From an uncultured Candidatus Saccharibacteria bacterium (GTDB lineage Bacteria; Patescibacteriota; Minisyncoccia; Minisyncoccales; CAYTKG01), in assembly GCA_964401285.1 (NCBI GenBank), contig CAYNXY010000001.1, positions 3,342-67,341 of the forward strand: a stretch of 64,000 bases of DNA, written 5' to 3'. Below the pieces are notes generated by a model. That model was not told the DNA's origin, did no database searches, and was given only the letters and a program-made list of their open reading frames with translations. Shown one piece after another: positions 5,738 through 55,569 of the stretch. How positions within the stretch are numbered: the first letter of the stretch is position 1; each line of letters opens with the position of its first letter. Made by a program: the position numbers and the translations under genes.

Positions 5738-7045
5738 TTAAAACTCCTTGAGCTTATCTGCCTCCTCATGCTCGCGCAGTTTTTTCAGGGCGCGAGCTGC
5801 AATCTGACGTATTCTTTCTCTTGTCACCCCGAATTCCTGGCCCACCTCCTCCAAGGTGTGCTTCACCCCGTCTTCCAGGCCAAAACGCATCTCAAGAATC
5901 TTTTGCTCGCGCGGGGTTAGATCTTTCATAAGGTCTGAGAGCCGCTCTTTTAAAAGAGCACGAGTTGCTTCCTGGAGAGGGGTTGTGCTTTCCGTATCCT
6001 CGATGAACTCTTGCAAAAGGGTGTCCTGGTCTTCTCCAACCGGTGTTTCAAGCGAGATAGTACCCTTTATTATCTTTCTTATTTTTCTTACCTTAGATAA
6101 GCTTAAGCCCATCTCGGCAGCCATCTCTTCGGGTAGAGGCTCTCTCCCTAACTGTTTTCTCAACCTTCTTTGTTCTTTTGTATATTTGGAAAGTGTTTCC
6201 ACCATATGAACAGGAATTCTTATGGTCCTCGAATAGTCAGCCAAGGCTCTGGTAATCGCCTGTCTTATCCACCAGGTAGCATAAGTTGAAAATTTGTAAC
6301 CCTTTTTCCAGTCAAACTTTTCAACTGCACGAAACAGGCCCCTGTTCCCTTCTTGAATAAGGTCTAAAAAGCTAAGATAGGGAGAACGACCAATATATCT
6401 TTTAGCAATGGAAACAACCAGCCTCAAGTTCGCTTGAATCATTTTCTTTCTGGCCGCTTCTTTTTCCGCCCTATCGCCATTATTTATTTTTTTTGCAAGT
6501 TCTACCTCTTCCTTGCGAGAAAGAAGCGGGGTGCGCCCGATTTCCTTAAGATACATCTGAACCGGGTCCACCTTTCTCCTCTTCTCAATCGGACCCTCTT
6601 CTTCTTCCATTTCTAAAAATCCTCTTTTTTCTTTTATTTCCACTCCTTCTTCAGCCAACCGGCTGTAAAGCTTCTCCAGGCCTTCAATGTCTTTTTCCAA
6701 ATAAGAAAAGGTATTCAAAATCTCCGCCTCGGTTACAAACCCCCTGGCCCTTCCTCTTTCCACGAAATCTTCCACTTTTTCTTTTCTAAAAACTTTAGAT
6801 TTGGGCATCGAACTACCCGGCAAAGTTAAATCCAGCTCTCCCAGCGCTTCTTTTATCTCCTGCACCGATTTTTCACCAATCCCTTCTTTCTCAAGAAGGG
6901 TTTCTTCTTTTCTTCTTAAAAGTCCGGCCACTGTTTTAATATTGTTGCCCCGCAAAGCATTTTCCGTCCGAGTGGAGAGGCCGAGCTCCGTTACTGTGAT
7001 TGACTTTTTTTCTTCCAAATTCTTTTTATTCATTGATATTTTCAA
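5738..7045 (-). CDS. rpoD: RNA polymerase sigma-70 factor RpoD with an extra N-terminal alpha-CTD-like helix-hairpin-helix domain
   Basis: Region 1.2/2 ([23 protein letters not shown]), region 2.4 ([12 protein letters not shown]) and region 4 ([15 protein letters not shown]...[19 protein letters not shown]) are present. It lies immediately downstream of dnaG, the classical dnaG-rpoD arrangement. Confidence 0.9.
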
Positions 7046-18263: not shown

Positions 18264-18264
18264 T

Positions 18265-18858
18265 ATGAAGCAAAAAACAAAAAAACCAAGTGTGAGGTTG
18301 CTAAAAGAGATGAAAAAAGTTGTTTACGATAAAAGTTTTGCGGGCAAGAATAAAAATCTTAAGCTTTATGAAGTTTATCGAAACTTGAAAAAAGACGGCA
18401 ACTTGCGCTACGATATAACGATCGTGAAACCCCAAATGCTCGGAGAAGAATTCGTAAGAACCAAAGGAAACTGCAACACCGAAGGATTCCAAGAATTATA
18501 CACCGTGCTTGAAGGAGAAGCGATATTTTTCTTGCAAAAATTCAAAAATAAAAAAGTAGAAGACGCCCTGGCTGTCAAAGTAAAGGAAGGACAATGGGTT
18601 ATTATCCCTCCCTATTATTGGGTAGTTCTCATCAACCCTTCTCGAGAAAAAACTTTGGAAACAGGGAACTGGGTTTCCAATAAAACAGAAAATAAATACA
18701 AGGAATTGGAAAAAATGGGTGGACAATGTTATTTCTACACAAAAGACGGTTGGGTAAAAAACAAAAATTATGAAAAAATTCCGGAACTAAGAACCGAGGG
18801 AGCGCTGGATAATAGACCGGAATCACTCGATTTCTTAAGAGGAGGTATTGGAAAATAA
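18265..18858 (+). CDS. Cupin-type glucose-6-phosphate isomerase (archaeal cPGI) homolog with substituted metal ligands (start moved to the internal ATG at 18265)
   Basis: Collinear with Pyrococcus cPGI. TKGNCNTEGFQELYTVLEG matches TKGHFH...AEVYVAL, and IIPPYYWVVLINPS matches YVPPYWAHRTVNIGD. The His ligands are replaced by N, N and V. The ATG at 18265 follows the upstream stop directly. Confidence 0.5.
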   Translation: MKQKTKKPSVRLLKEMKKVVYDKSFAGKNKNLKLYEVYRNLKKDGNLRYDITIVKPQMLGEEFVRTKGNCNTEGFQELYTVLEGEAIFFLQKFKNKKVEDALAVKVKEGQWVIIPPYYWVVLINPSREKTLETGNWVSNKTENKYKELEKMGGQCYFYTKDGWVKNKNYEKIPELRTEGALDNRPESLDFLRGGIGK

Positions 18859-35716: not shown

Positions 35717-38098
35717 TCAACCCTCTTCTTGCTCCTCAGATAACGCCACGATGGTTTTCATCACTACGTCAGGATTAAGAGAAATAGAATCAATCCCCTC
35801 TTTCACTAGAAACCGGGCGAATTCGGGGAAATCACTCGGCGCCTGCCCGCAGATGCCCGAATATTTTCCTCTTTTTTTACATTCCTGCACCGCCCTTGCC
35901 ACCATTTTTTTTACTGCCTCGTTTCTCTCGTCCGCTTTCTCGGCCAGTTTGGTATTATCCCTGTCTATCCCCAGCGTCAACTGCGTCAAATCATTGGACC
36001 CGATGGAATAACCGTCAAATGTCTCTAAAAAACGAGCTGCCGACTCCACATTGGAAGGGATTTCACACATCAAATAAACATTCAACTCATTTTCACCCCG
36101 TTTCAAACCAAAACCTGCCATAAGTTCCAAAACCTCTCTCCCCTCTTCCACCGTACGACAAAAAGGAATCATTACCGATATATTCTTTAACCCGAAAACA
36201 TCACGAGCCCTTTTAATCGCCTCACATTCCATTTCAAAAGCGGGTTGAAAACTTTCATCAAGATAGCGTGCAGCACCCCTAAACCCCAACATGGGGTTGG
36301 ATTCCTGGTCTTCAAAAAGCTCTCCACCTATCAAGTTTTCATACTCATTAGTTTTGAAATCGGAAAAACGAACAATCACCTCGCGCGGGTAAAAGGCGGC
36401 TCCAATCTGAGCCATTCCTTCAGCCAGTTCTTTAACAAAATATTCTTTCTTGTCCTTATGCTCTACGGTTAGCTCTTTTATTTTTTCTTTTACTTCCTGG
36501 TCCTCAAGTTCTTCGTAATGGTAAAGCGCCAAGGGGTGAACCCTTATCTTTTCTGCGATTATAAACTCCTCGCGGGCCAACCCTACCCCGCTTACAGGCA
36601 GAAAAGAGGTGTGGAAAGCAACCTCGGGGGCCCCGATATTAACCATAATTTTTGTCTCAAGCTCTGGAATTTTTTCCAAATTATACTCTTCCACTTCGTA
36701 AGAAACCTCTCCTTTAAAAATCCGACCGGAAAGCCCCTGAGTGCAATCCACCGTTACTTCGTCCCCCGTTTTAAGCATCTCTGTCCCTTTTCTCGTCCCC
36801 ACAATGCAGGGAACACCCAGTTCTCTTGAAACAATTGCCGCATGGCATGTTTTGCTGCCTTCATTCGTAATGATAGCCGAAGCCATTCTCATCACCGGTA
36901 CCCAGTCGGGGTCCGTCATCTCCGTTACCAAAACCTCCCCTTTCTTAAACTGAGAAATCTTGGAAACGTCAGAAATAACATGCACCTTACCCTGTCCAAT
37001 TTTGTTGCCGATGGCAATTCCTTCTAAAATCGGGTCTTCGCTGGTTTGAAGGTGGTATTCCTTGTAGGACCTTCCCTTTTTGGGGGCGTGAACGGTTTCC
37101 GGTCTTGACTGAACGATGAAAAGCTTCCCTGTTTCTCCATCCTTCGCCCATTCCACGTCCTGCGGACGGCCGTAACGCTCTTCAATAGCCATCCCCCAGC
37201 GCGCTAAGGTTAAGGCCTCTTCGTCGGTTAATGAAAACTCTCTTTCTTTCTCCCCCGACACCCCCACTTCTTTCAATCCGCCTTTTTTAGCATAAACAAG
37301 CTTTTTGTCTTTGCGACCCAAATCTTTACGAATAATACTTTTATACCCTTCTTCCAATGTGGGTTTAAAAACATAAAACTCGTCCGCCGTTATCTTCCCC
37401 TTGACAATCATTTCTCCAACCCCCCAGATGGAATTAATAAGAACCACATTGCTAAACCCCGTTTCCGTATCTATCGTGAACATCACCCCGGAAGAAGCAA
37501 GATCCGAACGAACCATTTTTTGCACACCGATAGAAAGGGCAAACTCCAAGTGGTCAATGCCTTTTTCTTCTCTGTAAGCTATTACCCTGTCTCCAAAAGA
37601 AGAAGCAAGACATTCTTTAAGAGCTTTCAAAAGCTCTTTTTTGCCCGAAACATTTAAAAACGTCTCAAACTGGCCGGCAAAAGAATCCTCGGGAGCATCC
37701 TCAGCCACCCCGGAGGAGCGAACAGCAACACTGACTTCTTTTTTCCCGTATCTTTCACTCAGCTCTTCATAATATTCTCCCACCTGCTCTTTTAATTCTT
37801 CCGGAAACTTTGCTTTACTTATAAGACGGCGGGCTTTCTTGCCGACGATCTGCAAACTTTTTATGCTGTCCGGGTTAAAATCTTTAAAAACTTTTTCCAA
37901 CTTCGGAGCAAGCTCGTTTTCTTTTATAAAAAACCAGTATGCTTTGGTGGTTAAGGCAAATCCTCCCGGAACGGAGACCCCCTTACTGGAAAGAGCGGCA
38001 ATCATTTCCCCTAAAGAAGCGTTCTTACCCCCCACAAGAGGAATGTCTTTTTTATCAACCTCGCCAAATTTTAAAACGTATTTATCTTTCTTACTCAT
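35717..38098 (-). CDS. ppsA: Phosphoenolpyruvate synthase (pyruvate, water dikinase)
   Basis: 793 aa with an N-terminal PPDK_N nucleotide-binding domain, a phospho-His domain (GSKTCHAAIVSRELGVPCIVG) and a C-terminal PEP-utilising TIM barrel. Confidence 0.85.
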   Translation of the reverse strand: MSKKDKYVLKFGEVDKKDIPLVGGKNASLGEMIAALSSKGVSVPGGFALTTKAYWFFIKENELAPKLEKVFKDFNPDSIKSLQIVGKKARRLISKAKFPEELKEQVGEYYEELSERYGKKEVSVAVRSSGVAEDAPEDSFAGQFETFLNVSGKKELLKALKECLASSFGDRVIAYREEKGIDHLEFALSIGVQKMVRSDLASSGVMFTIDTETGFSNVVLINSIWGVGEMIVKGKITADEFYVFKPTLEEGYKSIIRKDLGRKDKKLVYAKKGGLKEVGVSGEKEREFSLTDEEALTLARWGMAIEERYGRPQDVEWAKDGETGKLFIVQSRPETVHAPKKGRSYKEYHLQTSEDPILEGIAIGNKIGQGKVHVISDVSKISQFKKGEVLVTEMTDPDWVPVMRMASAIITNEGSKTCHAAIVSRELGVPCIVGTRKGTEMLKTGDEVTVDCTQGLSGRIFKGEVSYEVEEYNLEKIPELETKIMVNIGAPEVAFHTSFLPVSGVGLAREEFIIAEKIRVHPLALYHYEELEDQEVKEKIKELTVEHKDKKEYFVKELAEGMAQIGAAFYPREVIVRFSDFKTNEYENLIGGELFEDQESNPMLGFRGAARYLDESFQPAFEMECEAIKRARDVFGLKNISVMIPFCRTVEEGREVLELMAGFGLKRGENELNVYLMCEIPSNVESAARFLETFDGYSIGSNDLTQLTLGIDRDNTKLAEKADERNEAVKKMVARAVQECKKRGKYSGICGQAPSDFPEFARFLVKEGIDSISLNPDVVMKTIVALSEEQEEG

Positions 38099-39434
38099 TT
38101 TTTTGTAAGGCCTTTAAAGCCAACGCTGCTTCGCGCGGCTCGCTGTAATTAGGTATATTATTTTCTTCTAAAATTTTTACGGATTCTTGAGTCAGCTTCC
38201 CGCCCATAAAGCAACCGATAACGGGTTTATCCGGGTGTCTTTCCCCCGCCTTTGCTACCACCTTAGCATTTTGAGCTGCTTTTGTCATTATTTGAAGGGT
38301 TTGGATCACAATAAGGGCCCCCACGTTTTCGTCATTTAAAAGTGTGTTTAAGGCCTCCTCGTAAGTTTGAGGAGAGGCATCGCCTACCACATCAAGAGGA
38401 TTAGCAAAAGAAGAAGCGGGATGAAGCGCGGGAGAATCTTTTAACTTTTCAATAGTGTCTTTTTTAAGGGAAGCCATTTCTAAACCCAACTCACTGCAGT
38501 AGTCAACCGTGAGAGCCCCCGGACCGCCGGCATTGGTAACAATCCCCACTTTTCCCTTAAAACGCGGGCACCAAGCTAAAGCTTTACTTACATTCAAGAG
38601 TTCTGTTATGGTTTCTACTTCAAAAACACCCGTCTCTTTAAAAACTGCCGAGTATATTTCTCTTTGCCCGGCCAAAGAGCCGGTGTGAGAAGAAACAGCT
38701 TTTGTCCCCGCCTCAGTTTTCCCAGCTTTAAGAGCAACCACCGGCTTTGAAAGGCTCTTCAAGGTTTTTAAAAGGAGCCGGCCGTCATTTACTCCTTCAA
38801 GGTAAATAGCTGCATTTTTTGTTTCCCCGTCCCCGTCAAGCCATTTTAAAAAATCGGAAAGGCCGAGTCCTGCCGAGTTTCCCAAAGAAATAATACTTGA
38901 GAATCCGTAATTTTCCGTAAGAGATGCATCGATGATAGAATCGATAAGGGCGCCTGATTGAGAAATCAAGGCAATATTCCCCGGCTGAGGCGAAGCCGGC
39001 GCGAAAGAAGCATTCAGTTTTTTTGCAGGACGCAAAACTCCCAGACAATTCGGCCCCAAAAAAGGAATACCCGCTTTTTCCAAAACATCTTTCACCTTTC
39101 TCTCCCGCATCGCCCCTTCTTTTCCCGTTTCAGAAAAACCAGCAGAGATAATAATTACCCCTCCCACCTTTTTCTCTGCCGTCTCTTTTGCCACCTGAGG
39201 CACAATCTCTGCCGGGACAGCAATTATTGCTAAATCAACTTCCCCCTTAATATCAGTAATCTTATCGTAAGCTTTATTCTCCAAAATCTCTTTTTTATTG
39301 GGGTTTACAAAATAAATCTTTCTCTGTTTTTCTCCTTCCAAAAGATTTTTGCAAAGCCCCAAACCAACCGATCCCGGCCGGTCCGTTGCTCCAATAACAG
39401 CTACAGATTTTGGATCAAATATCTTCTCCATAAT
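38091..39434 (-). CDS. ADP-forming acetyl-CoA synthetase (NDP-forming acyl-CoA synthetase) alpha subunit (start moved to MEKIFD)
   Basis: Collinear with archaeal ACD alpha (KSVAVIGATDRPGSVG...VDLAIIAVPAEIVPQV...GFSETGKEG...GPNCLG). The ORF-track start at 39473 would translate through the palindromic repeat. The internal ATG has a GAGGGGG Shine-Dalgarno sequence. Confidence 0.8.
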   Translation of the reverse strand: MMEKIFDPKSVAVIGATDRPGSVGLGLCKNLLEGEKQRKIYFVNPNKKEILENKAYDKITDIKGEVDLAIIAVPAEIVPQVAKETAEKKVGGVIIISAGFSETGKEGAMRERKVKDVLEKAGIPFLGPNCLGVLRPAKKLNASFAPASPQPGNIALISQSGALIDSIIDASLTENYGFSSIISLGNSAGLGLSDFLKWLDGDGETKNAAIYLEGVNDGRLLLKTLKSLSKPVVALKAGKTEAGTKAVSSHTGSLAGQREIYSAVFKETGVFEVETITELLNVSKALAWCPRFKGKVGIVTNAGGPGALTVDYCSELGLEMASLKKDTIEKLKDSPALHPASSFANPLDVVGDASPQTYEEALNTLLNDENVGALIVIQTLQIMTKAAQNAKVVAKAGERHPDKPVIGCFMGGKLTQESVKILEENNIPNYSEPREAALALKALQKNE

Positions 39435-39440
39435 CCCCCT

Positions 39441-39465
39441 CTGTGCAATACCTGGTATTGCACAG
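39441..39465. repeat. Dispersed palindromic element, copy 2 (CTGTGCAATACCTGGTATTGCACAG), followed by a tandem GCACAGTTA duplication
   Basis: 12-bp perfect arms around a single central T. It lies 7 nt upstream of the ACD-alpha start and 30 nt downstream of ACD-beta. Confidence 0.8.
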
Positions 39466-39494
39466 TTATGCACAGTTACACGCAGGTTAAAAAG

Positions 39495-40115
39495 TTATTT
39501 CGTTAATATTTTAGCATCTACTACAAGTGCCTTTTTCGAATTCGCAATGACAGGGTTGAAATCAATCTCCTCAACCTCTTCTTGTTCGAGAGAAAACCTT
39601 GAAAGATTCACCAGGATATCCACTAACTCTTCTATTTTTACCTCTTCTTTTTCTCTAAAACCTTGAAGCACCTTAAAACTCTTAATCTCCCTCATCATTC
39701 TTCCTGCTTCCTTTCTGTTGATCGGAGCCACCCGGAAAGAAACATCTTTAAGAACCTCTGTAAATATACCGCCCAGTCCGAACATGATCACGGGCCCGAA
39801 CTGCTCGTCCCGTTTCATCCCCATTATAATTTCAGTCCCTTCAATATGCTTTTGAACAATAACTTTCCCGCCGAGAGCTGAAACACTTTTCCATCCTTTT
39901 TCAAAGTCCTGTCTGTTACGAATGTCAACCACCACCCCGCCTTTTTCAGTGCGGTGAAGCACTTCGGGCGAAGCAGTTTTTAAAACGATAGGCCAACCGA
40001 GATTTTCCGCTTTGTTAAGACCCTCTTTTTTAGAGTCAACTAAAAAGTTCTTTACATAAGGAATGCCGTACTTTTTTAAAAGCTTTTTTGTTTTTTCAAA
40101 GCTTAATCTTTCCAT
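39495..40115 (-). CDS. ADP-forming acetyl-CoA synthetase beta subunit (ATP-grasp domain)
   Basis: ATP-grasp_5-like (GWPIVLKTASPEVLHRTEKGGVVVDIRN...GTEIIMGMKRDEQFGPVIMFGLGGIFTEVLKD); 206 aa. It lies upstream of the alpha subunit. Confidence 0.75.
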   Translation of the reverse strand: MERLSFEKTKKLLKKYGIPYVKNFLVDSKKEGLNKAENLGWPIVLKTASPEVLHRTEKGGVVVDIRNRQDFEKGWKSVSALGGKVIVQKHIEGTEIIMGMKRDEQFGPVIMFGLGGIFTEVLKDVSFRVAPINRKEAGRMMREIKSFKVLQGFREKEEVKIEELVDILVNLSRFSLEQEEVEEIDFNPVIANSKKALVVDAKILTK

Positions 40116-41115: not shown

Positions 41116-42447
41116 TCAATCGACTTCTGGTCTTTTTACCCACAAAAAACTGGTATAATTTTCCTTCAGGTCCTGAAGAGACCGGTCAATAATCTCAAGG
41201 TTGAATTTATCCGCACAAACCTCCGCCGCCAAGACAGCGTAGTTTTTCGGAAGCTCCCCCCTACTCAATGCCCGGGCGCAGTTGGCTTGGTCAATTAAGT
41301 CACCTTCCCCGGAAATTTTTTCAACCCCCGGGTATTTTTGCTCAAGAGTTTTTCGGCACTGAGCCAATGCTTGAGGATGAGAAATAATCGCATTAATATC
41401 CTTTTTCTCGACTTCAGGGTGGACCATAAGACAGTGGTCAATAATTATCTTAAACTGGTCAACAATCCGGCACCGATAACCGCTCAGGGCCTCAATTGTT
41501 TCCTGAACTACCCCGCCGGCAGCGTTTTCCACGGCAAACTGTCCCCTATCAATCTCTCCCTTGTAAAGTTCATCAAGAACTCTTTTGGAAGTAAAAAGGT
41601 ATTTTGTTTTTACGTTTTTAATTTTTTCTCCTTCGCAGTATTCTCTTAAGGCCTGTTCATTAAAACTTCCTTCCCCGCCTTGGATTCCTACCGTAAGATA
41701 ACCAGGGTCCACTCTTTCGGGTAGAAGCTTATTAAAAATCCTGTTTTGCGCTTTACCTACCTCGACCCGCATTTTTTTCGTAAAAGGATTAAAGGTCTGA
41801 AGGTCCCGGAACAACTCCCACGTGTCATTACAAGTTTGTTCCACGATTTCAAGCAACTTCTCATATCCTAAAGTCCCGATAGGGGTGGATTTTAAATCCA
41901 GCTCACCTAAAACTCGCCCGACGTAGTGAGTAATGCCCTGGGAAAATGCAGCTTCCCGGTCGTGCTCTTCCGGGCTCATCTCCACTACCTCAAGCCCCAA
42001 ATCAGAAAAATACTTTTTCCAAAAATTATACTTCTCAGAAGAAACTCTTGTTTTATGCATTACTATCGGTAATCCCTCGAGCCCGCCTTTGGCGCTGTCC
42101 GGGCCGAACATGGGATGGGTATTCATAATTTCCACGTCTTCGGGTAAATTTTTAACCATCTCTCCCGCGGGAAACTTTTTAACAGAAGCAACATCCACTA
42201 CTAAGGTCCCCCCTTTAAGACGTGCAGCAATATTTTTAGTTACCTCCGGGAAAGAAGAAATGGGAACGCACAAAAACAAAGTATCAGCATCAAATAACTT
42301 TTCAAAGTCAACCCAGCTTGCCCCCAAATCCTCTGCCTTCTCTTCTAAATCTTTCTTATCGTAAACTTTAACTTCAAAATCCCGGGCTAAAATCCTAGCC
42401 CACAGGCCGCCAAACCGCCCTAATCCTAAAATAGATACCTTTTTCAT
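41116..42447 (-). CDS. Fusion of prephenate/arogenate dehydrogenase (TyrA) and prephenate dehydratase (PDT) catalytic domains with no ACT or chorismate-mutase domain
   Basis: N-terminal Rossmann GLGRFGGLWARIL plus HPMFGP and SPEEHDREAAFSQGITH (TyrA). The C-terminal half has the PDT pattern GIQGGEGSFNEQALREY...ENYTSFLWV (cf. LGPEGTFS...NxTRFLVL). The protein ends about 10 aa after it. Confidence 0.6.
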   Translation of the reverse strand: MKKVSILGLGRFGGLWARILARDFEVKVYDKKDLEEKAEDLGASWVDFEKLFDADTLFLCVPISSFPEVTKNIAARLKGGTLVVDVASVKKFPAGEMVKNLPEDVEIMNTHPMFGPDSAKGGLEGLPIVMHKTRVSSEKYNFWKKYFSDLGLEVVEMSPEEHDREAAFSQGITHYVGRVLGELDLKSTPIGTLGYEKLLEIVEQTCNDTWELFRDLQTFNPFTKKMRVEVGKAQNRIFNKLLPERVDPGYLTVGIQGGEGSFNEQALREYCEGEKIKNVKTKYLFTSKRVLDELYKGEIDRGQFAVENAAGGVVQETIEALSGYRCRIVDQFKIIIDHCLMVHPEVEKKDINAIISHPQALAQCRKTLEQKYPGVEKISGEGDLIDQANCARALSRGELPKNYAVLAAEVCADKFNLEIIDRSLQDLKENYTSFLWVKRPEVD

Positions 42448-42551
42448 CTTAATTGTTATGCCTCTTGCCTGGAAAGATAATCTTTAAAATAAAAGCAGCC
42501 CGAACGGACCGCTTCATAAAATATTACTTAAGCTAGCATTGATATCTTTTC

Positions 42552-43847: not shown

Positions 43848-44936
43848 TTATCCTTCACAACCTCCCCCGCTCGAAGATCCTGAAGCATTCTCCCCGCCAA
43901 AAGAGGGCGCCGGTGCCTCATCAGAAAGTTCTTCCTCGCATTCATCGGGTGCTTCTTCAAAAGCGGAACACAGTACATTCTTAATTGATTCAGGAGTTCT
44001 ATTAAACTCCGGGTTGACGAAACAACTAGCTTCATCTGGACACTGTCCCTTGCTGGAAACGACCCTTACTCCGTTGACCACCAGGGTCGGTGAGCCACTT
44101 ATGTCAAATTGCTCATTAAGTTCGGAGTGGACCTGAAAACGAGGATATCTGTCGTTCAGCCATTTTTCTTTGTTTTCGTAATTCTCTGTCACTTGAAACT
44201 CCTGGTCAGCGCTTTCCGTGCAAGAATCCAATTGACCCGTATCAACTTCAGCCAAAGCTAAACAAGGGCCACTTTCACCGGCTTGCACAAAACAACCAAG
44301 GTAAGAAGCTATTTTATCAGATTGTTCTTTTTGGATACAATATTGCCTCAAGTTTTCATCGATTTCTTTTTTCTCGTGCATCGCATAGTCCACAAAATAA
44401 ATTCCCATATCCATTTTATCCCCTAAAAGATCCCAAACAGGCAACATGGCCTTTTCCACCTGTAGTCCATAAGGGCAATAAGACATCGTGAAAAGTTTAA
44501 CATCCGGAGTTTCCGACTGAGGCAGTTCGGACAAAGCTCCATCTTCTTCTCCTTCTTCCTCCCCCTCCGACTCCGCAGTTTGAGTCACAAACTCATTAAG
44601 GTCCACCCCAGAAGGGAAAAGAAATCGGCCGTCCAAGGTGACATAAGAGGTGAATTCTTGCCCTCCCACGTCCAACTCAAGCTCAAATATACTTTGTTTG
44701 TTTAATTTCTTAACACTATTTACAGAAGCAGGAGTTTCAGGCAATGTTTCCTCAATGTATGCTAGAACCCTTTCTTTTATTTTCTCTTTTGAGAGCTCAT
44801 TCGAGGCGGAAAGTTTAGTCCATGCGAACCACCCGCCGGCAACAAGAGAAACAAAAATTAAAATTACAGGCACGATAAACTTCCAATCCCCTCCTCCTAT
44901 CTGTTTTATTTTTTTCATATTTCTTTTCATCCACAT
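43848..44936 (-). CDS. Membrane-anchored DsbA-like thiol:disulfide oxidoreductase (thioredoxin fold, CPYG)
   Basis: N-terminal TM anchor and a C-terminal DSBA-like domain (FTMSYCPYGLQVEK...GSPTLVVNG); Cys- and Gly-rich tail. Confidence 0.55.
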   Translation of the reverse strand: MWMKRNMKKIKQIGGGDWKFIVPVILIFVSLVAGGWFAWTKLSASNELSKEKIKERVLAYIEETLPETPASVNSVKKLNKQSIFELELDVGGQEFTSYVTLDGRFLFPSGVDLNEFVTQTAESEGEEEGEEDGALSELPQSETPDVKLFTMSYCPYGLQVEKAMLPVWDLLGDKMDMGIYFVDYAMHEKKEIDENLRQYCIQKEQSDKIASYLGCFVQAGESGPCLALAEVDTGQLDSCTESADQEFQVTENYENKEKWLNDRYPRFQVHSELNEQFDISGSPTLVVNGVRVVSSKGQCPDEASCFVNPEFNRTPESIKNVLCSAFEEAPDECEEELSDEAPAPSFGGENASGSSSGGGCEG

Positions 44937-44987: not shown

Positions 44988-46214
44988 TCAAGCGCGCTTT
45001 AAAATATTTTCCATAAGCTTCATTTGAGGGAACTTTCCCAATCCTCCGCGCAGGCATGCTTTTTCGGAAAAAACAGAAACCTCATCCTTTCGCCCGCCCC
45101 AAAAAAGAACCGGGCAAGGCTGAGCACAATGCCTTTTCTTAATCGAGCAGGTCGAATGATCACAGGTAATAACAATAAAAATGTCTTGAGGGTTGTTGAA
45201 CTTTTTAATCTCCCAATCAATTTTTTCAATAAAATCTCTTTTCCTTTCATAATCACCGTCTTCGGCTAAACTATCCGTAGCTTTAATGTGAAGAAAAACA
45301 AAATCTTTTCCCCGCAAGGCCTTTTGAGCCTTTTCCACCTTCCCCGCTAAATTCGTATCAATATGTCCGTTTGCCCCCGTCACTTCCAAGACTTCCATCT
45401 TCAAACTATTAGCAACCTCTTTGTAAAGGGTTTTCCCCGCCACACAGGAAGCATCAAGCCCCCATTTTTCTTTAAAAGAAGTTATTTCCCTGCACGAAGA
45501 AGCCCCTCGCAATAAAATACAATTGGCAGGAGGGAGCCCTTCCTTTTTTCTTTTCTCGTTGAGCGAATGGTCTTCTAATAAACTACCCGTTTTTTGCAAA
45601 AATTCATTTAGAACACGGGCGGTCTTTTCCGCTTCAGAAGAGTTTTCAAGCGGTTCAATCTTTTCAAATTTTTGGGAAAGTTTGGAATAAAAAGGGTCGC
45701 CGTCTGAAACCTGCGGGCTCAGCCCCTCTCCTCGTACCACAATCCCCAACCTGTGATCGGAAGCACTTTCAATCAAAAACTCAGCTCCTTCCACTTCAAC
45801 TTTTCTTAGATCATCAATAAACTTTTTAGCATCTTTTGTTTTTATCCTCCCGGCCCTTCTATCCACCACCTCCCCCTTCTCGTTAAGCGTTCCAAAATTA
45901 CCCCGTAATGCCACATCATCTCTTTTTGTTTCAATCCCCGCCCCGCGAGCAGTAAAAAACCCTCTGCGCACACCTAGTTTTTGGGCGTCATACCCAAAAA
46001 GACCAAGATGCCCCTCTTCAGAGGTTGGCAAAGCACCACTAAAAGAAACATCCAAAAGCCCGCACTCGCCCTCCTCTGCCAAATCGTTCATAAATGGGGT
46101 GTGTGCTTCCTCAAGTGGAGTATTCCCTTGAAAATCCGGAATAGGTTCGTCACCCAACCCATCCAAAACAATAAAAAGTATCTTTTTCATTTTTTTATGT
46201 GCAATATCTACCAA
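44988..46214 (-). CDS. apgM: 2,3-bisphosphoglycerate-independent phosphoglycerate mutase, archaeal type (ApgM). The true start is probably the ATG at 46190, as the ORF track begins at a TTG.
   Basis: MKKILFIVLDGLGDEP metalloenzyme N-terminus and the ApgM-type domain order; 400-408 aa. Confidence 0.8.
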   Translation of the reverse strand: MVDIAHKKMKKILFIVLDGLGDEPIPDFQGNTPLEEAHTPFMNDLAEEGECGLLDVSFSGALPTSEEGHLGLFGYDAQKLGVRRGFFTARGAGIETKRDDVALRGNFGTLNEKGEVVDRRAGRIKTKDAKKFIDDLRKVEVEGAEFLIESASDHRLGIVVRGEGLSPQVSDGDPFYSKLSQKFEKIEPLENSSEAEKTARVLNEFLQKTGSLLEDHSLNEKRKKEGLPPANCILLRGASSCREITSFKEKWGLDASCVAGKTLYKEVANSLKMEVLEVTGANGHIDTNLAGKVEKAQKALRGKDFVFLHIKATDSLAEDGDYERKRDFIEKIDWEIKKFNNPQDIFIVITCDHSTCSIKKRHCAQPCPVLFWGGRKDEVSVFSEKACLRGGLGKFPQMKLMENILKRA

Positions 46215-52444: not shown

Positions 52445-54079
52445 TTAATTATTTTTATCTTCTCCTCCGTTTTCCGTCTTTTTTTCTGCTTTTTTAGGGA
52501 TTTCCACATAAAAAGTGCTTCCTTTTCCTTTGCCTTTACTTTTCGCCCATATCTCCCCTCCATGAAGCTCTACGTATTTCTTATTAAGATACAAACCAAG
52601 CCCGGTCCCTTCCACAAAACGGTTCACCCCGGCTTCACCTCTTATAAAACGAGCGAATATTTTCGTAAGCTCTTCCTCGCTCATCCCTTCCCCTGTGTCT
52701 TGTACTTTCAACCTAACCTTGGAATCAACGGATTCTAAGGTTATAGTTATGCTACCCTCATTAGTATATCTTATAGCATTGTCTAGTAAGTTGAATACAA
52801 CTTGCCTCATCTTAACCGGGTCCACCCTTAGTTTATCAAAATCTTTCGGTTTACGCCACTTAATCTTTAAACCCTTCTTCTCTGCTCTACGGGATAACTC
52901 GTTTACAACACTTTCCACCACCTCACCCATATCCGTTTCCTCAAGCTCAAGTTCAAGCCGCCCTAAATCTGCCTTGGAAATATTTAAAAGATCGTTAACC
53001 ACATTCACCAATCTCTCGTTTGATTCAAATATATCTTTAAGCGGAGGGCGAGCGTCCTCGGGGACCTCCCCGTATTCACCTTCAAGTATCATCGAAGAAA
53101 GCCCCTTAACAATGGTAATAGGCGTTCGGAGCTGATGGGAAGCCATAGCCACAAACTCACTTTTTGCTTCATCTATTCTTTTAAGTTCATCATATGCCTC
53201 CCTGAGATTATCCGCCATCTCTTCCATCTCCTCTCGCCGCTTTATCTCCTTTAATACACTCTTAATGAGGGTCCATCCGAGGTAAATGAAGGCAATGAGA
53301 ATCAAACCTTTAAATATAACCTTGCTTGCTCCCTGCGCCAACAATAACTCTATAAAAAGAACTAAACTGACTAATCCAACAAGTAATTCAGTAGCTATAA
53401 CCCTGATATTAAACAAATGGTGCTTGGTAATAGCGTAGGCTATAAAAATAACCATAGCTAAGGTCCACATCGGTCCAATTTGATAATATCTAAAATTTCC
53501 GACCGTTGGCAATAATAGATTAAATACGGTCGCGAAAAAAACAGTAACAAAAAAACCTACTAGTATATACTTAATCTGTCTTTTTAGGTTTCTTTTTGCC
53601 TTTTTATACTTGGCAACTAATAACCAAAATCCTAGAAAAAAATAGAAAGAAATATAAAAGAAATATAACGGATACAAAGAACCAAAAGAAATTATTCGCT
53701 CTTTGTTAAAAACCTTAAACCCAGTAATAATATAGTCTGCATGTATTAAGTAAACAAAAAGAGAAAACGGTATCCAGAGAATAAAACTAATCCACTTTGG
53801 GAAGAAAGGCTTATTTTCAGGAAAATAAAGACAAAAATATAAGAAAAACAAAGCTGAAAGCGCTGCGGCTGAATAAGCCACCTTACTCAATAACAAGGCT
53901 GTTTCTGGAATATTAGTATAATAATAAACAAATAAGGGAGCAGACCACAATATTACACTTCCTAAGAGTAATAGATAAAAGAGGATTGATTTCGTAATCT
54001 TAGTACTAAAATATATAAAAACGACCAAAGCTAAATTCACTAAAATAGTCACTAATAAAATAGCAGAAGTTATAGCCAT
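52445..54079 (-). CDS. Sensor histidine kinase with a large N-terminal multi-pass membrane sensor domain
   Basis: About 8 TM helices, a coiled linker, H-box ASHQLRTPITIVKG and HATPase_c N/G1/G2 boxes (DNAIRYT...QDTGEGM...GTGLGLY). Confidence 0.85.
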   Translation of the reverse strand: MAITSAILLVTILVNLALVVFIYFSTKITKSILFYLLLLGSVILWSAPLFVYYYTNIPETALLLSKVAYSAAALSALFFLYFCLYFPENKPFFPKWISFILWIPFSLFVYLIHADYIITGFKVFNKERIISFGSLYPLYFFYISFYFFLGFWLLVAKYKKAKRNLKRQIKYILVGFFVTVFFATVFNLLLPTVGNFRYYQIGPMWTLAMVIFIAYAITKHHLFNIRVIATELLVGLVSLVLFIELLLAQGASKVIFKGLILIAFIYLGWTLIKSVLKEIKRREEMEEMADNLREAYDELKRIDEAKSEFVAMASHQLRTPITIVKGLSSMILEGEYGEVPEDARPPLKDIFESNERLVNVVNDLLNISKADLGRLELELEETDMGEVVESVVNELSRRAEKKGLKIKWRKPKDFDKLRVDPVKMRQVVFNLLDNAIRYTNEGSITITLESVDSKVRLKVQDTGEGMSEEELTKIFARFIRGEAGVNRFVEGTGLGLYLNKKYVELHGGEIWAKSKGKGKGSTFYVEIPKKAEKKTENGGEDKNN

Positions 54080-54867
54080 AACAATATTTTTGCTTTAATT
54101 GCCTTCAAAGACCTTCTCAAAGAATAAATAAACTTAACAACTATTGCGTTTTTAAATAAAAAAATATTTTCTCCTAATTTTTTGAACAAAAGCTTATTAT
54201 TAAGAATAGAATCGACATAATTCTCCACTTCTTCTCTTAGATAATATATTAAATAAACTGGTCTGTTCGGGTCGTTGAAAAAATTAGAAAGAGGATCGTG
54301 CGATTTTTCTGGATCATAAATTAACTCTTTCTTATTAATAACATGTACAGGAAGACCTAGTTCTAGTATGCTTTTTAGAGCCTTTCCCTTAATCGTACCA
54401 TAACCAGCTTTAATATTGTTTTCTCTAGAAAAATCTAGCATAGAAGAAATCAATCCTAATAAAATCAAATGCCTTGGTAAATACACCTTTTCAGAATATT
54501 TAATAGAAATTAGCCTCCCAATCTCACAGACTTCATCAGAAGACATTTTTTTAATCTCTGAAGGTTCTTTAAACTCATAATACTCTGTTCTTGTGGGCGG
54601 AGGGGAAATTGTTATTATGCGGGCGCTACCAATTATTTTTCCGTCAATCTCAGCAATAAAGTAATGGCACTTATTGATTCTATCGTATTCGTCAATCTCT
54701 CTCTCCTCTAAACTTTCGTCGTCTGGTATATATGCTTCTTTTTTGACATAAACCTTATATCTGAGCTCATACATCTTGTCCAGCTCTTCTTCACTGTTAG
54801 GCATTCCAAATAATATAGTTTTCAATTCCCCACGGAGATTGATTTTAATGCTCTTATACGCCTTCAT
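54070..54867 (-). CDS. GNAT-fold N-acyltransferase of the autoinducer-synthase-like (LuxI / FeeM N-acyl amino acid synthase) type
   Basis: MYELRYKVYVKKEAYIPDDESLEEREIDEYDRINKCHYFIAEIDGKIIGSARI matches the LuxI/FeeM pattern R-x2-VF-x(n)-E-x-D-x-YD-x(n)-G-x3-G-x-RL. The 265-aa length is in range. Confidence 0.45.
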   Translation of the reverse strand: MKAYKSIKINLRGELKTILFGMPNSEEELDKMYELRYKVYVKKEAYIPDDESLEEREIDEYDRINKCHYFIAEIDGKIIGSARIITISPPPTRTEYYEFKEPSEIKKMSSDEVCEIGRLISIKYSEKVYLPRHLILLGLISSMLDFSRENNIKAGYGTIKGKALKSILELGLPVHVINKKELIYDPEKSHDPLSNFFNDPNRPVYLIYYLREEVENYVDSILNNKLLFKKLGENIFLFKNAIVVKFIYSLRRSLKAIKAKILLWL

Positions 54868-54870
54868 GAT

Positions 54871-55569
54871 TCACAATTTTCTCCCTGAATTCAAAATCGA
54901 CTGATCAGCGTAAACTGAAAAGTCGTTAGATACATCAGAAAAGCCTACTTCTTGTAACAAAACTTTTTGTTCTCCTTTTTCAAAAAAATAGTACTCATTT
55001 TCCTGAGTGATAAAGTGGTTGTAGTAAAGAATCTTTATAGCTGGTTTGATAAGAAGAGTTACTTTAACTAAACTTTTTAAAAACCCTTGCTCTTTAAAAT
55101 TAAGCTTTAACCCTTCTAAATATATTTTAAAGGGACTCCAGCCCTTTTTAGGGTTAGCTATCACTACCTTCCCGTTCGGTTTTAACACTCTTATGAATTC
55201 TTTTAAAACTTCTTTGTGTTTTTTTTTCGGAATCGCGTATAAGACATTGTTACAGGTAATTTTATCAAAGTGCTCATTTGGAAAAGGTAACTTTTCTCTT
55301 AGGTCAGAAAGGACTAACTCAAGCACTGGATTTTTACTCCTACAAATATCGAGAGCTGCTTGTGAATTATCGAGCCCCACTACCTCTGCTCCTCTTTCTT
55401 CCAGCTTCAAAGCTAAATTACAAGTACCACAACCAGCTTCTAAAACCTTATCTCCCTCTTTAACGTCCAACTCATCACAAATAGTATTTAAAAGTTTTTG
55501 ATAAGGAATCAAAAGATTTAACACGTCATAAACTTCAAAATATTTTCTCCAGAAATCTGCACTAAGCAT
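54871..55569 (-). CDS. Class I SAM-dependent methyltransferase
   Basis: Motif I VLEAGCGTCNLALKL, motif post-I VVGLDNS and motif II ITCNNVLYAI. Confidence 0.8.
   Translation of the reverse strand: MLSADFWRKYFEVYDVLNLLIPYQKLLNTICDELDVKEGDKVLEAGCGTCNLALKLEERGAEVVGLDNSQAALDICRSKNPVLELVLSDLREKLPFPNEHFDKITCNNVLYAIPKKKHKEVLKEFIRVLKPNGKVVIANPKKGWSPFKIYLEGLKLNFKEQGFLKSLVKVTLLIKPAIKILYYNHFITQENEYYFFEKGEQKVLLQEVGFSDVSNDFSVYADQSILNSGRKL

What the first reader, a model, noticed from the sequence alone, without database searches (positions are those of the whole stretch)
41116..42447. Prephenate dehydrogenase fused to prephenate dehydratase with no ACT or chorismate-mutase domain
A single 443-aa polypeptide carries TyrA-type NAD-binding and HPMFGP/SPEEHD motifs. 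It also carries the PDT catalytic pattern (GSFNEQA...NYTSFLWV, cf. GTFS...NxTRFLVL) and ends right after. Both enzymes consume prephenate in opposite directions (Tyr versus Phe branch). A fusion lacking the allosteric ACT domain is atypical compared with the known CM-PDT and CM-PDH bifunctional proteins. No other aromatic-amino-acid genes are nearby.
Basis: partly seen in the sequence, partly recalled or inferred. Interest (0 to 1): 0.55.

Follow-up and report, generated by a model that had tools for sequence, protein, structure and literature searches.

The report
ACT-less TyrA–prephenate dehydratase fusion enzyme
This is a real single gene in a candidate-phyla-radiation bacterium that joins the last dedicated enzyme for tyrosine to the one for phenylalanine with no feedback-sensing domain; the architecture is common in uncultured bacteria but I found no biochemical study of it.

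Summary
ORF 41116..42447 (minus strand, 443 aa) carries a TyrA dehydrogenase half (aa 1-246) and a prephenate-dehydratase (PDT) catalytic half (aa 247-443). It ends 9 residues after the catalytic motif and has no ACT or chorismate-mutase domain. An independent assembly carries the same intact ORF, so it is not a frameshift.

It is not a one-off. All 80 retained loci from GTDB species genomes encode both halves, mostly in Patescibacteria, Melainabacteria, Dormibacterota and Chloroflexi. In 46 of 80 loci it lies next to shikimate genes, often as the last gene of DAHP synthase ... chorismate synthase - chorismate mutase - (aminotransferase) - fusion. The family therefore belongs to Phe/Tyr biosynthesis.

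Two deviations stand out. The TyrA half is plant-type and has an invariant Asp at the published arogenate-specificity position. The PDT half belongs to a large ACT-less clade in which the Arg of the "universal" T-R-F triad is replaced, mostly by Ser or Thr (T-S-F here).

The best reading is a bifunctional branch-point enzyme, probably acting on arogenate. A BacA-type decarboxylase reading is rejected on sequence and motifs. In this window the gene sits among glycolysis genes, and no other aromatic-pathway gene lies within 64 kb. Interest is moderate: a new, uncharacterised variant of known enzymes.

The parts
41116..42447 (-). Complete fusion gene (443 aa plus stop codon 41116-41118)
   Evidence: ORF list; Pfam; same intact ORF in the independent assembly L086
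41710..42447 (-). TyrA half (aa 1-246): Rossmann NAD(P)-binding domain plus helical substrate/dimerisation domain, plant-type
   Evidence: PDH_N E 2.1e-15. Soybean PDH1 5t95 matches aa 3-246 at E 4.9e-41, against 1e-10 or weaker for other bacterial TyrA structures. Foldseek TM 0.91 normalised to the target, rmsd 1.7 A
42115..42117 (-). His111 codon in the HPMFGPDS motif; the catalytic His of TyrA enzymes (role assigned from my general knowledge of the family)
   Evidence: Invariant in 81/81 family members and 80/80 GTDB loci
41824..41826 (-). Asp208 codon, the position equivalent to residue 222 of plant TyrA (Asp gives arogenate, Asn gives prephenate)
   Evidence: HMMER alignment places query TCND against wild-type soybean PDH1 MMRN. 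Invariant D in 81/81 and 80/80. Role of the residue from PMC5681985
41119..41709 (-). PDT catalytic half (aa 247-443), ACT-less
   Evidence: PF00800 E 1.3e-36, profile 1-179 of 181. PDB PDTs 3mwb 1.1e-13 and 4lub 6e-12. Foldseek 2qmx and 6vh5 rmsd 2.2 A over about 190 residues
41146..41154 (-). T432-S433-F434 codons: the variant of the canonical PDT T-R-F triad, with Arg replaced by Ser
   Evidence: Sequence read directly. Position 433 is S in 51 and T in 30 of 81, never R. In the 80 GTDB loci it is S 52, T 16, N 3, D 3, Y 2, I 1; Arg is not among the six commonest residues listed, which cover 77 of 80. PDB PDTs all have TRF
42492..42515 (-). Terminator-like hairpin plus T-run between the GAPDH stop (42552) and the fusion start (42447); it may make the fusion its own transcription unit
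   Evidence: Consensus scan only. The number of such sites equals the shuffle expectation (4 found, 3.9 expected), so this is weak evidence

Best explanation
The gene encodes a bifunctional terminal enzyme of phenylalanine and tyrosine biosynthesis. The N-terminal TyrA half oxidatively decarboxylates a cyclohexadienyl precursor, using NAD(P)+, towards tyrosine. The C-terminal PDT half decarboxylates and dehydrates the same precursor towards phenylalanine. The common substrate is most probably arogenate, made from prephenate by an aminotransferase, so the products would be Tyr and Phe directly. Prephenate use by one or both halves is not excluded. Chorismate mutase is supplied in trans; in related genomes it is a small AroQ gene translationally coupled upstream. 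There is no ACT domain, so no allosteric Phe feedback is expected. I infer that fusing the two halves fixes their 1:1 expression at the branch point, and that the obligately dimeric TyrA core may replace the ACT-mediated oligomerisation of classical PDTs.

Shown: the domain identities, folds, motif conservation, family distribution and operon context. Inferred: that both halves are active, the arogenate preference, NAD+ preference for this member (Asp30 at the end of strand beta-2), and the regulatory logic.
For: Domains and folds are established.

Conservation: H111, H162, D163, D208, S261, N308, E316, H357, Q363, N430, T432 and F434 are invariant or nearly so in 81 family members and in 80 independent GTDB species loci. 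Both halves are therefore under purifying selection.

Context: in Daviesbacteria L002 the fusion is the last gene of transketolase - transaldolase - DAHP synthase - DHQ synthase - EPSPS/shikimate kinase - shikimate DH - DHQase - chorismate synthase - CM_2 - fusion, and the CM stop overlaps the fusion start. Across 80 GTDB loci, 46 have at least one shikimate gene within 10 kb, and 29 have chorismate synthase plus CM directly upstream. A translationally coupled class-I aminotransferase of about 383 aa lies between CM and the fusion in 20 loci and directly after it in one. No second PDT or TyrA gene lies within 10 kb in the CPR operons.

Arogenate: D208 aligns with residue 222 of plant TyrA. An acidic residue there gives arogenate specificity in plants and in clade-I bacterial TyrAs, and D-to-N introduces PDH activity (PMC5681985). 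The gene order CM - aminotransferase - fusion follows the order of the arogenate route. In Dormibacterota a canonical CM-PDT-ACT-DAHPS gene with NYTRF and ESRP motifs lies next to the fusion, so the two dehydratases are not simply redundant.
Against: No member of this family has been assayed, as far as I could find.

The Arg of the T-R-F triad, described as critical for substrate binding and catalysis and conserved in all PDT/ADT enzymes, is missing. The dehydratase half could be impaired or altered.

Plant ADTs, which use arogenate, keep TRF, so TSF is not an established arogenate signature. An aminotransferase in the operon fits equally well with transamination after PDH/PDT.

In this window the gene is not next to any aromatic gene. 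The rest of the genome could not be inspected, so the pathway may be incomplete in this organism. The closest relatives (55% identity) are also outside aro operons.
Confidence: 0.75

Rival explanations
1. It is a classical prephenate route. The fusion is a prephenate dehydrogenase plus prephenate dehydratase making 4-hydroxyphenylpyruvate and phenylpyruvate, and an aromatic aminotransferase acts afterwards. This is the first reader's wording and differs from the best explanation only in substrate.
For: Pfam and NCBIfam names are prephenate enzymes. The best PDB match is a genuine prephenate dehydrogenase, soybean PDH1. An operon aminotransferase could act after the fusion. GapMind's authors state that PDH and ADH cannot be reliably told apart by sequence.
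Against: The invariant Asp at the 222-equivalent position is the experimentally supported determinant of arogenate over prephenate in this TyrA clade, while soybean PDH1 has Asn there. The Dormibacterota neighbour is already a canonical prephenate dehydratase.
Confidence: 0.25
2. The C-terminal half is not a catalyst. It is a ligand-binding or oligomerisation module of periplasmic-binding-protein-like fold that replaced ACT and regulates or scaffolds the TyrA half.
For: The Arg of the 'critical' TRF triad is lost. A canonical ACT-bearing PDT coexists next door in Dormibacterota. At least one PDT homolog has another reported function: GqqA, described as a quorum-quenching acylase (PDB 7am0).
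Against: The catalytic Thr, N430, the N308 loop and SHPQ..QC are invariant or nearly so across deep lineages. The same ACT-less clade also occurs stand-alone (about 190 aa) and fused only to chorismate mutase (about 285 aa), where a purely regulatory role for TyrA makes no sense. Complete CPR aro operons contain no other PDT within 10 kb.
Confidence: 0.1
3. The C-terminal half is a BacA/AerD/SalX-type non-aromatising prephenate decarboxylase feeding a specialised metabolite, not phenylalanine.
For: Source-named BacA and 'prephenate decarboxylase' proteins are also about 200-aa, ACT-less PF00800 proteins. BacA also lacks the TRF Arg.
Against: The best BLASTP hit to 53 BacA-family sequences has E 5e-4 at 21.6% identity, and a BacA-family HMM gives no hit at E<=10. 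A canonical PDT-ACT scores 1e-10 and the ACT-less clade scores 1e-51 to 1e-73. BacA lacks the (E/H/Q)N-x-x-GG-x-V-x-E loop through a 10-residue deletion, lacks SHPQ..QC, and has PMSWS[LV]F instead of N-x-T-x-F; the fusion keeps all three. The family's context is primary shikimate operons in small genomes.
Confidence: 0.04
4. It is an assembly or frameshift artefact that merged two adjacent genes.
For: None found.
Against: An independent assembly has the same ORF. The best 120 homologous protein clusters and 80 of 80 GTDB loci span both halves in one frame. AlphaFold2 models one continuous, confidently packed two-domain protein.
Confidence: 0.01

Closest known systems
Archaeoglobus fulgidus / Huberarchaea TyrA-AroQ-PheA-ACT multi-domain fusion (PMC1173090, PMC11237513)
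   Same: It is the only described fusion I found that puts TyrA and PheA catalytic domains on one polypeptide, in the same N-to-C order.
   Different: [quoted passage not shown] Its TyrA was predicted to belong to a different, E. coli-like class in that paper. It is reported as restricted to two archaeal lineages. The present family has neither CM nor ACT, is plant-type, and is widespread in bacteria.
Plant-type (clade I) arogenate dehydrogenases TyrAa; soybean PDH1 structures 5t9e and 5whx
   Same: This is the best sequence and structure match for aa 3-246 (E 4.9e-41, 35% identity, TM 0.91). The Asp at the 222-equivalent position is as in arogenate-specific members.
   Different: Those enzymes are monofunctional (or tandem TyrA repeats in Arabidopsis, from memory). 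None is fused to a dehydratase. Plant enzymes prefer NADP+, whereas this member has Asp30 at the end of strand beta-2, which suggests NAD+ (inference).
Canonical prephenate/arogenate dehydratases (PheA, P-protein, plant ADT; PDB 2qmx, 3mwb, 6vh5)
   Same: They share the PF00800 catalytic fold, the catalytic Thr, the Asn loop and the SHPQ..QC motif.
   Different: All of them have a C-terminal ACT domain (GALV/ESRP) for Phe feedback and an intact T-R-F triad. The fusion ends 9 residues after T-S-F.
E. coli T-protein (CM-PDH) and P-protein (CM-PDT-ACT)
   Same: They are bifunctional enzymes at the prephenate branch point.
   Different: Those fuse consecutive steps (CM plus one branch). This protein fuses the two competing branches and leaves CM separate.
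BacA/AerD/SalX prephenate decarboxylases
   Same: They are ACT-less proteins of about 200 aa consisting only of a PF00800 domain, without the TRF Arg.
   Different: They are very distant in sequence (E 5e-4) and lack the Asn loop and SHPQ..QC. They sit in secondary-metabolite clusters (context from memory and from the papers cited).

Membership tests
TyrA dehydrogenase family (PF02153 plus TyrA C-terminal domain) | N-terminal Rossmann fold with a GxGxxG dinucleotide-binding motif | tested here: met
   G8-L-G10-R-F-G13. G8, G10 and G13 are invariant in 81 sequences. PDH_N E 2.1e-15.
TyrA dehydrogenase family (PF02153 plus TyrA C-terminal domain) | Catalytic His in the HP(M/L)FGP motif and overall TyrA fold | tested here: met
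   H111 is invariant. Foldseek to 5t9e gives TM 0.91 normalised to the target, rmsd 1.7 A.
TyrA dehydrogenase family (PF02153 plus TyrA C-terminal domain) | NAD(P)+-dependent oxidative decarboxylation of prephenate or arogenate | not testable with these tools
   This needs an enzyme assay.
Clade I arogenate-specific TyrAa (Schenck et al. 2017, PMC5681985) | Acidic residue at the position equivalent to plant TyrA residue 222 | tested here: met
   D208 aligns with N222 of soybean PDH1. It is D in 81/81 and 80/80 sequences.
Clade I arogenate-specific TyrAa (Schenck et al. 2017, PMC5681985) | Phylogenetic placement inside clade I with plant, spirochaete and proteobacterial TyrAa | tested here: inconclusive
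   The match to the plant-type structure (143.9 bits) is far stronger than to S. meliloti, A. aeolicus or Synechocystis TyrA (22-44 bits). No tree with clade I and II references was built.
Prephenate/arogenate dehydratase (PF00800 catalytic domain) | PDT domain above the Pfam gathering score, with the PDT fold | tested here: met
   126.6 bits against a cut-off of 25.2, profile positions 1-179 of 181. rmsd 2.2 A to 2qmx and 6vh5.
Prephenate/arogenate dehydratase (PF00800 catalytic domain) | Catalytic Thr of the T-R-F triad (E. coli PheA T278, numbering from memory) | tested here: met
   T432 is T in 80/81 and 78/80 sequences.
Prephenate/arogenate dehydratase (PF00800 catalytic domain) | Arg of the T-R-F triad, described as conserved in all PDT/ADT enzymes | tested here: not met
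   S433 here. The position is S or T in all 81 family members. In the 80 GTDB loci Arg is not among the six commonest residues listed, which cover 77 of 80. Only 5 of the 150 closest PDT-half cluster representatives have R.
Prephenate/arogenate dehydratase (PF00800 catalytic domain) | C-terminal ACT regulatory domain with GALV/ESRP motifs | tested here: not met
   No ACT hit at E<=1. The protein ends 9 aa after TSF. The tail is at most 15 aa in all 80 loci.
Prephenate/arogenate dehydratase (PF00800 catalytic domain) | Asn loop (PIENS..G; E. coli N160) and SHPQ..Q motif (S208, Q215); residue roles from memory of Zhang et al. 2000 | tested here: met
   N308 is N in 79/81 and 80/80. H357, P358, Q359, Q363 and C364 are invariant or nearly so. 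The Glu preceding the Asn is variable (H, Q or E).
BacA-type non-aromatising prephenate decarboxylase | Sequence membership in the BacA/AerD/SalX clade and its motifs (TLGPEGTSSE, SHP[SA]P, PMSWS[LV]F, no Asn loop) | tested here: not met
   BLASTP best E 5e-4; BacA HMM gives no hit. The motifs differ.
Archaeoglobus-type TyrA-AroQ-PheA-ACT fusion | AroQ chorismate-mutase domain between TyrA and PheA, and a terminal ACT domain | tested here: not met
   No CM_2 or ACT hit. The TyrA helix runs straight into the PDT strand through a linker of about 8 residues.

The most novel reading that the evidence does not exclude
The fusion, the DapL-like aminotransferase often coupled upstream, and the small AroQ together form a plant-like arogenate route to both Phe and Tyr in Patescibacteria, Melainabacteria and Dormibacterota. 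On this reading the large ACT-less T-[S/T]-F PDT clade (stand-alone, CM-fused or TyrA-fused) would be the bacterial arogenate-dehydratase lineage. The coupled aminotransferase would be a further, undescribed class of prephenate aminotransferase. For this window's 'orphan' copy, which has no aro genes within 64 kb in a Parcubacteria-like genome, a more radical sub-reading is that the organism finishes Phe and Tyr from prephenate or arogenate obtained from a host or community.
Probability: 0.3. Interest if true: 0.6.

Novelty: new variant of a known kind. Interest (0 to 1): 0.4.

Why it matters
Aromatic amino-acid biosynthesis is a textbook case of branch-point control by allosteric domains and by fusions of consecutive enzymes. 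This family fuses the two competing branch enzymes, drops the feedback domain, and alters a triad regarded as universal. It is nonetheless conserved across many uncultured lineages, including reduced CPR genomes that are usually assumed to lack amino-acid biosynthesis.

If the arogenate prediction holds, the plant-like arogenate route would be much more widespread in bacteria than currently documented. It would also give new, compact, feedback-insensitive enzymes for metabolic engineering of Phe and Tyr. The family would be relevant to the open question of where plant TyrAa came from. Automated annotation currently names the protein only as a dehydrogenase, so pathway-reconstruction tools may wrongly score these genomes as Phe auxotrophs.

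Tried and rejected
(1) Frameshift or assembly artefact: rejected by the independent assembly and the family-wide single ORF.

(2) BacA-type decarboxylase: I recalled a BacA sequence and authenticated it against source-named database entries. I then rejected the rival on similarity, HMM score and motifs. The Mahlstedt 2010 paper could not be read by DOI or PMC id.

(3) Hidden CM, aminotransferase or shikimate genes in the window: tblastn and Pfam found none.

(4) RNA regulators such as a T-box or attenuator near the gene: Rfam found only two tRNAs in the window.

(5) Context of a stand-alone ACT-less PDT (P0122): uninformative, lying between an M13 peptidase and ClpP.

(6) Context of the closest relatives P0002 and P0003: no aro genes, in a conserved SDR - DUF1858 - UDG - fusion - UPF0102 arrangement with an HD-domain gene after the fusion in two of the three loci. 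This gives no functional lead.

(7) Looking up the window protein by exact sequence for its NCBI record failed. Only the contig length of 68,870 bp was learned, so the rest of the genome could not be inventoried.

(8) Literature searches for a described TyrA-PheA fusion without ACT, or for shikimate pathways in Patescibacteria, found nothing relevant.

(9) The promoter/terminator scan is at background level and proves nothing about operon structure.
Full report
**The observation.** The window contains a 443-codon ORF at 41116..42447 on the minus strand with an ATG start. Pfam finds PDH_N at aa 25-122 (E 2.1e-15). It finds PDT at aa 253-440, covering profile positions 1-179 of 181 (E 1.3e-36, 126.6 bits against a gathering score of 25.2). 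No ACT and no chorismate-mutase domain appears even at E<=1. NCBIfam splits the protein the same way. Its best models are a prephenate dehydrogenase (aa 3-237) and a prephenate dehydratase (aa 253-440), and all scores are far below the equivalog cut-offs, so the protein belongs to no curated equivalog.

Against solved structures, aa 3-246 match soybean prephenate dehydrogenase 1, a plant-type TyrA, at E 4.9e-41. Other bacterial TyrA structures score only 1e-10 or weaker. The C-terminal half matches PDT structures at 1e-13 to 1e-6. An AlphaFold2 model built on 81 family members is confident (mean pLDDT 95.0, pTM 0.83). Foldseek superposes the N-terminal half on 5t9e (TM 0.91 normalised to the target, rmsd 1.7 A) and about 190 C-terminal residues on PDT catalytic domains 2qmx and 6vh5 (rmsd 2.2 A).

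**Not an artefact.** A Logan assembly of sequencing run SRR31818007 independently contains the same ORF, 1330 of 1332 nt identical, with 14 mismatches over 18.2 kb and the same gene order. The best 120 homologous protein clusters all carry both Pfam domains and are almost all about 430-465 aa long. All 80 retained loci from GTDB species genomes encode both halves in one frame.

**Host and neighbourhood.** The window is bacterial, with RecA, FtsK, FtsZ, DnaG, sigma-70, GroEL, RpoB and RpoC. RpoB is closest among named sequences to Pacebacteria, Nealsonbacteria, Parcubacteria and Minisyncoccales at 61-63% identity; the nearest unnamed relative is 76% identical. The host is therefore a Patescibacteria (CPR) bacterium of the Parcubacteria type.

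The fusion lies in a co-directional run of energy and glycolysis genes. The order is PEP synthase/PPDK-like, ADP-forming acyl-CoA synthetase alpha and beta subunits, an alpha/beta hydrolase, the fusion, GAPDH, glutaredoxin, an unknown Cys-rich protein, archaeal-type phosphoglycerate mutase, enolase and thioredoxin reductase. No shikimate, chorismate-mutase or aminotransferase gene exists anywhere in the 64 kb. A terminator-like hairpin lies between GAPDH and the fusion, but such sites occur at background frequency.

**The family and its context.** The patterns used could also match single-domain relatives, so 595 is an upper bound for fusions. The 80 best loci are all full-length fusions. They come from Levy-, Davies-, Roizman- and Woesebacteria, Saccharimonadales, Peri- and Gracilibacteria, Paceibacterota, Obscuribacterales/Melainabacteria, Dormibacterota, Chloroflexi and a few bins labelled as DPANN archaea.

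In a Daviesbacteria genome (L002) the fusion is the last gene of a contiguous operon. The order is transketolase, transaldolase, DAHP synthase, DHQ synthase, EPSP synthase-shikimate kinase, shikimate dehydrogenase, dehydroquinase, chorismate synthase, an 85-aa AroQ chorismate mutase, then the fusion. The CM gene and the fusion overlap by 4 nt. By tblastn, 46 of the 80 loci have at least one shikimate gene within 10 kb, and 29 have chorismate synthase plus CM directly upstream. This is a lower bound, because many contigs are short.

In 20 loci a translationally coupled class-I aminotransferase of about 383 aa lies between CM and the fusion, and in one locus it lies directly after it. It is closest to LL-diaminopimelate and aspartate aminotransferase models but scores below every equivalog cut-off. 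The family is therefore a genuine component of Phe/Tyr biosynthesis, and chorismate mutase is supplied in trans. The window's copy and its closest relatives (55% identity) belong to a subset that sits outside such operons.

**The TyrA half.** H111 (HPMFGPDS), H162-D163 and D208 are invariant in 81 family members and in 80 independent GTDB loci. D208 aligns with residue 222 of soybean PDH1: the query reads TCND where the wild-type enzyme reads MMRN. Schenck and colleagues showed that an acidic residue at this position contacts the amine of arogenate. They also showed that clade-I bacterial TyrAs with Asp or Glu are arogenate-specific, and that a D-to-N change in a spirochaete enzyme introduces prephenate dehydrogenase activity (PMC5681985). 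By that published rule the whole family is predicted to be arogenate dehydrogenases. The residue at the end of strand beta-2 varies: it is D in 56 of 81 members, including this protein, and N, Q, S or T in most others. That suggests cofactor preference varies, with NAD+ here; this is inference only.

**The PDT half.** The catalytic Thr (T432), N430, F434, the Asn-containing loop (N308, G311, G312, E316) and S/T-H-P-Q...Q-C (356-364) are invariant or nearly so. The Arg of the T-R-F triad is not retained. The literature calls that triad critical for substrate binding and catalysis and conserved in all PDT and ADT enzymes (PMC10845154, PMC13217925). In this family the position is Ser in 51 and Thr in 30 of 81 sequences. 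In the 80 GTDB loci it is S 52, T 16, N 3, D 3, Y 2 and I 1, and Arg is not among the residues listed. The protein ends 5-15 residues after the motif in all 80 loci, so ACT is absent throughout.

A full-sensitivity HMMER search with the PDT half alone against 1.84 billion cluster representatives gave 75 hits at E<=1e-30. The 150 best form an ACT-less clade with three main architectures. These are stand-alone proteins of about 185-215 aa, CM_2-PDT proteins of about 280-295 aa (Pfam-confirmed for P0123, P0140 and P0176), and TyrA-PDT fusions of about 440 aa. There are a few oddities such as Pro_dh-PDT. Only 5 of the 150 have Arg in the triad. Loss of ACT and of the Arg is therefore a feature of a large PDT subfamily, not of this gene alone.

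**Rival: BacA-type decarboxylase.** The only characterised ACT-less PDT-domain proteins I know of are the non-aromatising prephenate decarboxylases BacA, AerD and SalX. I searched with a recalled BacA sequence and used only hits that NCBI or UniRef name BacA or prephenate decarboxylase. They are about 200-aa PF00800 proteins. The fusion's C-terminal half is very distant from them. The best BLASTP E-value is 5e-4 at 21.6% identity, and an HMM of 53 BacA-family sequences gives no hit. By contrast a canonical PDT-ACT scores 1e-10 and ACT-less clade members score 1e-51 to 1e-73. In a joint alignment BacA has a 10-residue deletion of the Asn loop, lacks SHPQ..QC, and ends in PMSWS[LV]F. The fusion keeps the canonical motifs. 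Together with the primary-metabolism operon context, this rival is unlikely.

**Rival: non-catalytic C-terminal half.** In six Dormibacterota loci and one Saccharimonadales locus the fusion is followed, on the opposite strand, by a 679-aa CM-PDT-ACT-DAHP synthase gene with intact NYTRF and ESRP motifs. A classical Phe-regulated dehydratase can therefore coexist with the fusion. That could mean the fusion's PDT half is not a dehydratase. It could equally mean that it serves a different substrate (arogenate rather than prephenate) or a different regulatory regime. Three observations favour catalysis: the invariance of the catalytic residues, the existence of stand-alone and CM-fused members of the same clade, and the lack of any other PDT in complete CPR aro operons.

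**Mechanism proposed.** Chorismate is converted to prephenate by the separate AroQ. An aminotransferase converts prephenate to arogenate. The fusion then partitions arogenate: the TyrA half makes Tyr and the PDT half makes Phe. Fusing the two competing branch enzymes fixes their stoichiometry in genomes with little regulation. No Phe-sensing ACT domain is present, so control, if any, would be by competitive product inhibition, which is an inference. Classical PDTs dimerise through catalytic-regulatory domain contacts and form tetramers through ACT-ACT contacts (PMC8774845). Here the obligately dimeric TyrA core may take over that role, which is also an inference.

The steps shown are the domain identities, conservation, distribution and operon linkage. 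The steps inferred are the substrates, the activity of both halves, the cofactor and the regulation.

**Comparison with known systems, and novelty.** The known fusions are CM-PDH (T-protein), CM-PDT-ACT (P-protein), TyrA-EPSP synthase, and the TyrA-AroQ-PheA-ACT protein of Archaeoglobus and Huberarchaea (PMC1173090, PMC11237513). None lacks both CM and ACT, and none joins a plant-type TyrAa to a TRF-less PDT. Searches of 8 million full texts found no description of this architecture. Databases label it only 'prephenate dehydrogenase/arogenate dehydrogenase family protein' or similar.

I classify it as a new, uncharacterised variant of a known kind, and the window's gene as an ordinary member of that widespread family. 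Interest is moderate. The finding is correct and biochemically testable. It touches on arogenate against prephenate routes, regulation without ACT, CPR biosynthetic capacity and the origin of plant TyrA. It is not categorically new.

Noticed in passing
window 5738..7045 (-): A 435-aa sigma-70 factor (regions 1.1-4) carries an N-terminal domain matching the C-terminal domain of the RNA polymerase alpha subunit (PF03118, aa 8-69, E 4.6e-15). This is an unusual alpha-CTD/RpoD fusion.
   Followed up: no
window 70..5736 (+): A giant 1888-aa protein has two GH94 supersandwich stretches, a GH94 catalytic domain and a glucoamylase-like domain. It resembles cyclic beta-1,2-glucan or cellobionic-acid phosphorylase enzymes, which is unexpected in a small CPR genome.
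   Followed up: no
window 18193..18858, 44988..46214, 38091..40115: The glycolytic set has an archaeal flavour. It includes a cupin-type glucose-6-phosphate isomerase (PF06560), an archaeal-type cofactor-independent phosphoglycerate mutase (PF10143) and a split ADP-forming acyl-CoA synthetase with separate alpha and beta subunits.
   Followed up: no
window 43848..44936 (-): A 362-aa protein has no Pfam hit. It has an N-terminal transmembrane segment, an acidic low-complexity linker and many Cys residues. It lies between glutaredoxin and phosphoglycerate mutase and is conserved in the independent assembly L086.
   Followed up: no
window 54070..55569 (-), GC dip at 54-56 kb: A FeeM/autoinducer-synthase-like N-acyl amino-acid synthase (GNAT) lies next to a methyltransferase, just downstream of a 7TM histidine kinase and a response regulator. 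The region has the lowest GC in the window, 0.33 against about 0.42.
   Followed up: no
L060:11335..13374 (-) and the equivalent in L063, L066, L071, L072, L075, L079: Dormibacterota and one Saccharimonadales genome encode a four-domain CM_2-PDT-ACT-DAHP synthase (type I-beta) protein of 679 aa. It is convergent with the TyrA-PDT fusion.
   Followed up: partly
L006:8848..9999, L049:8859..10004 and 19 other loci: A DapL/AspC-like class-I aminotransferase scoring below all NCBIfam equivalog cut-offs is translationally coupled between chorismate mutase and the fusion. It is a candidate prephenate or aromatic aminotransferase of an undescribed subfamily.
   Followed up: partly
P0202 (527 aa): A proline dehydrogenase (PF01619) is fused to an ACT-less PDT domain, an unexplained architecture within the same PDT clade.
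   Followed up: no
L013, L041, L045, L059 (record titles): Full-length fusions at 47-48% identity occur in bins labelled Woesearchaeota, Nanoarchaeia and Micrarchaeia (DPANN archaea). This could reflect mis-binning or inter-domain transfer between episymbiont lineages.
   Followed up: no
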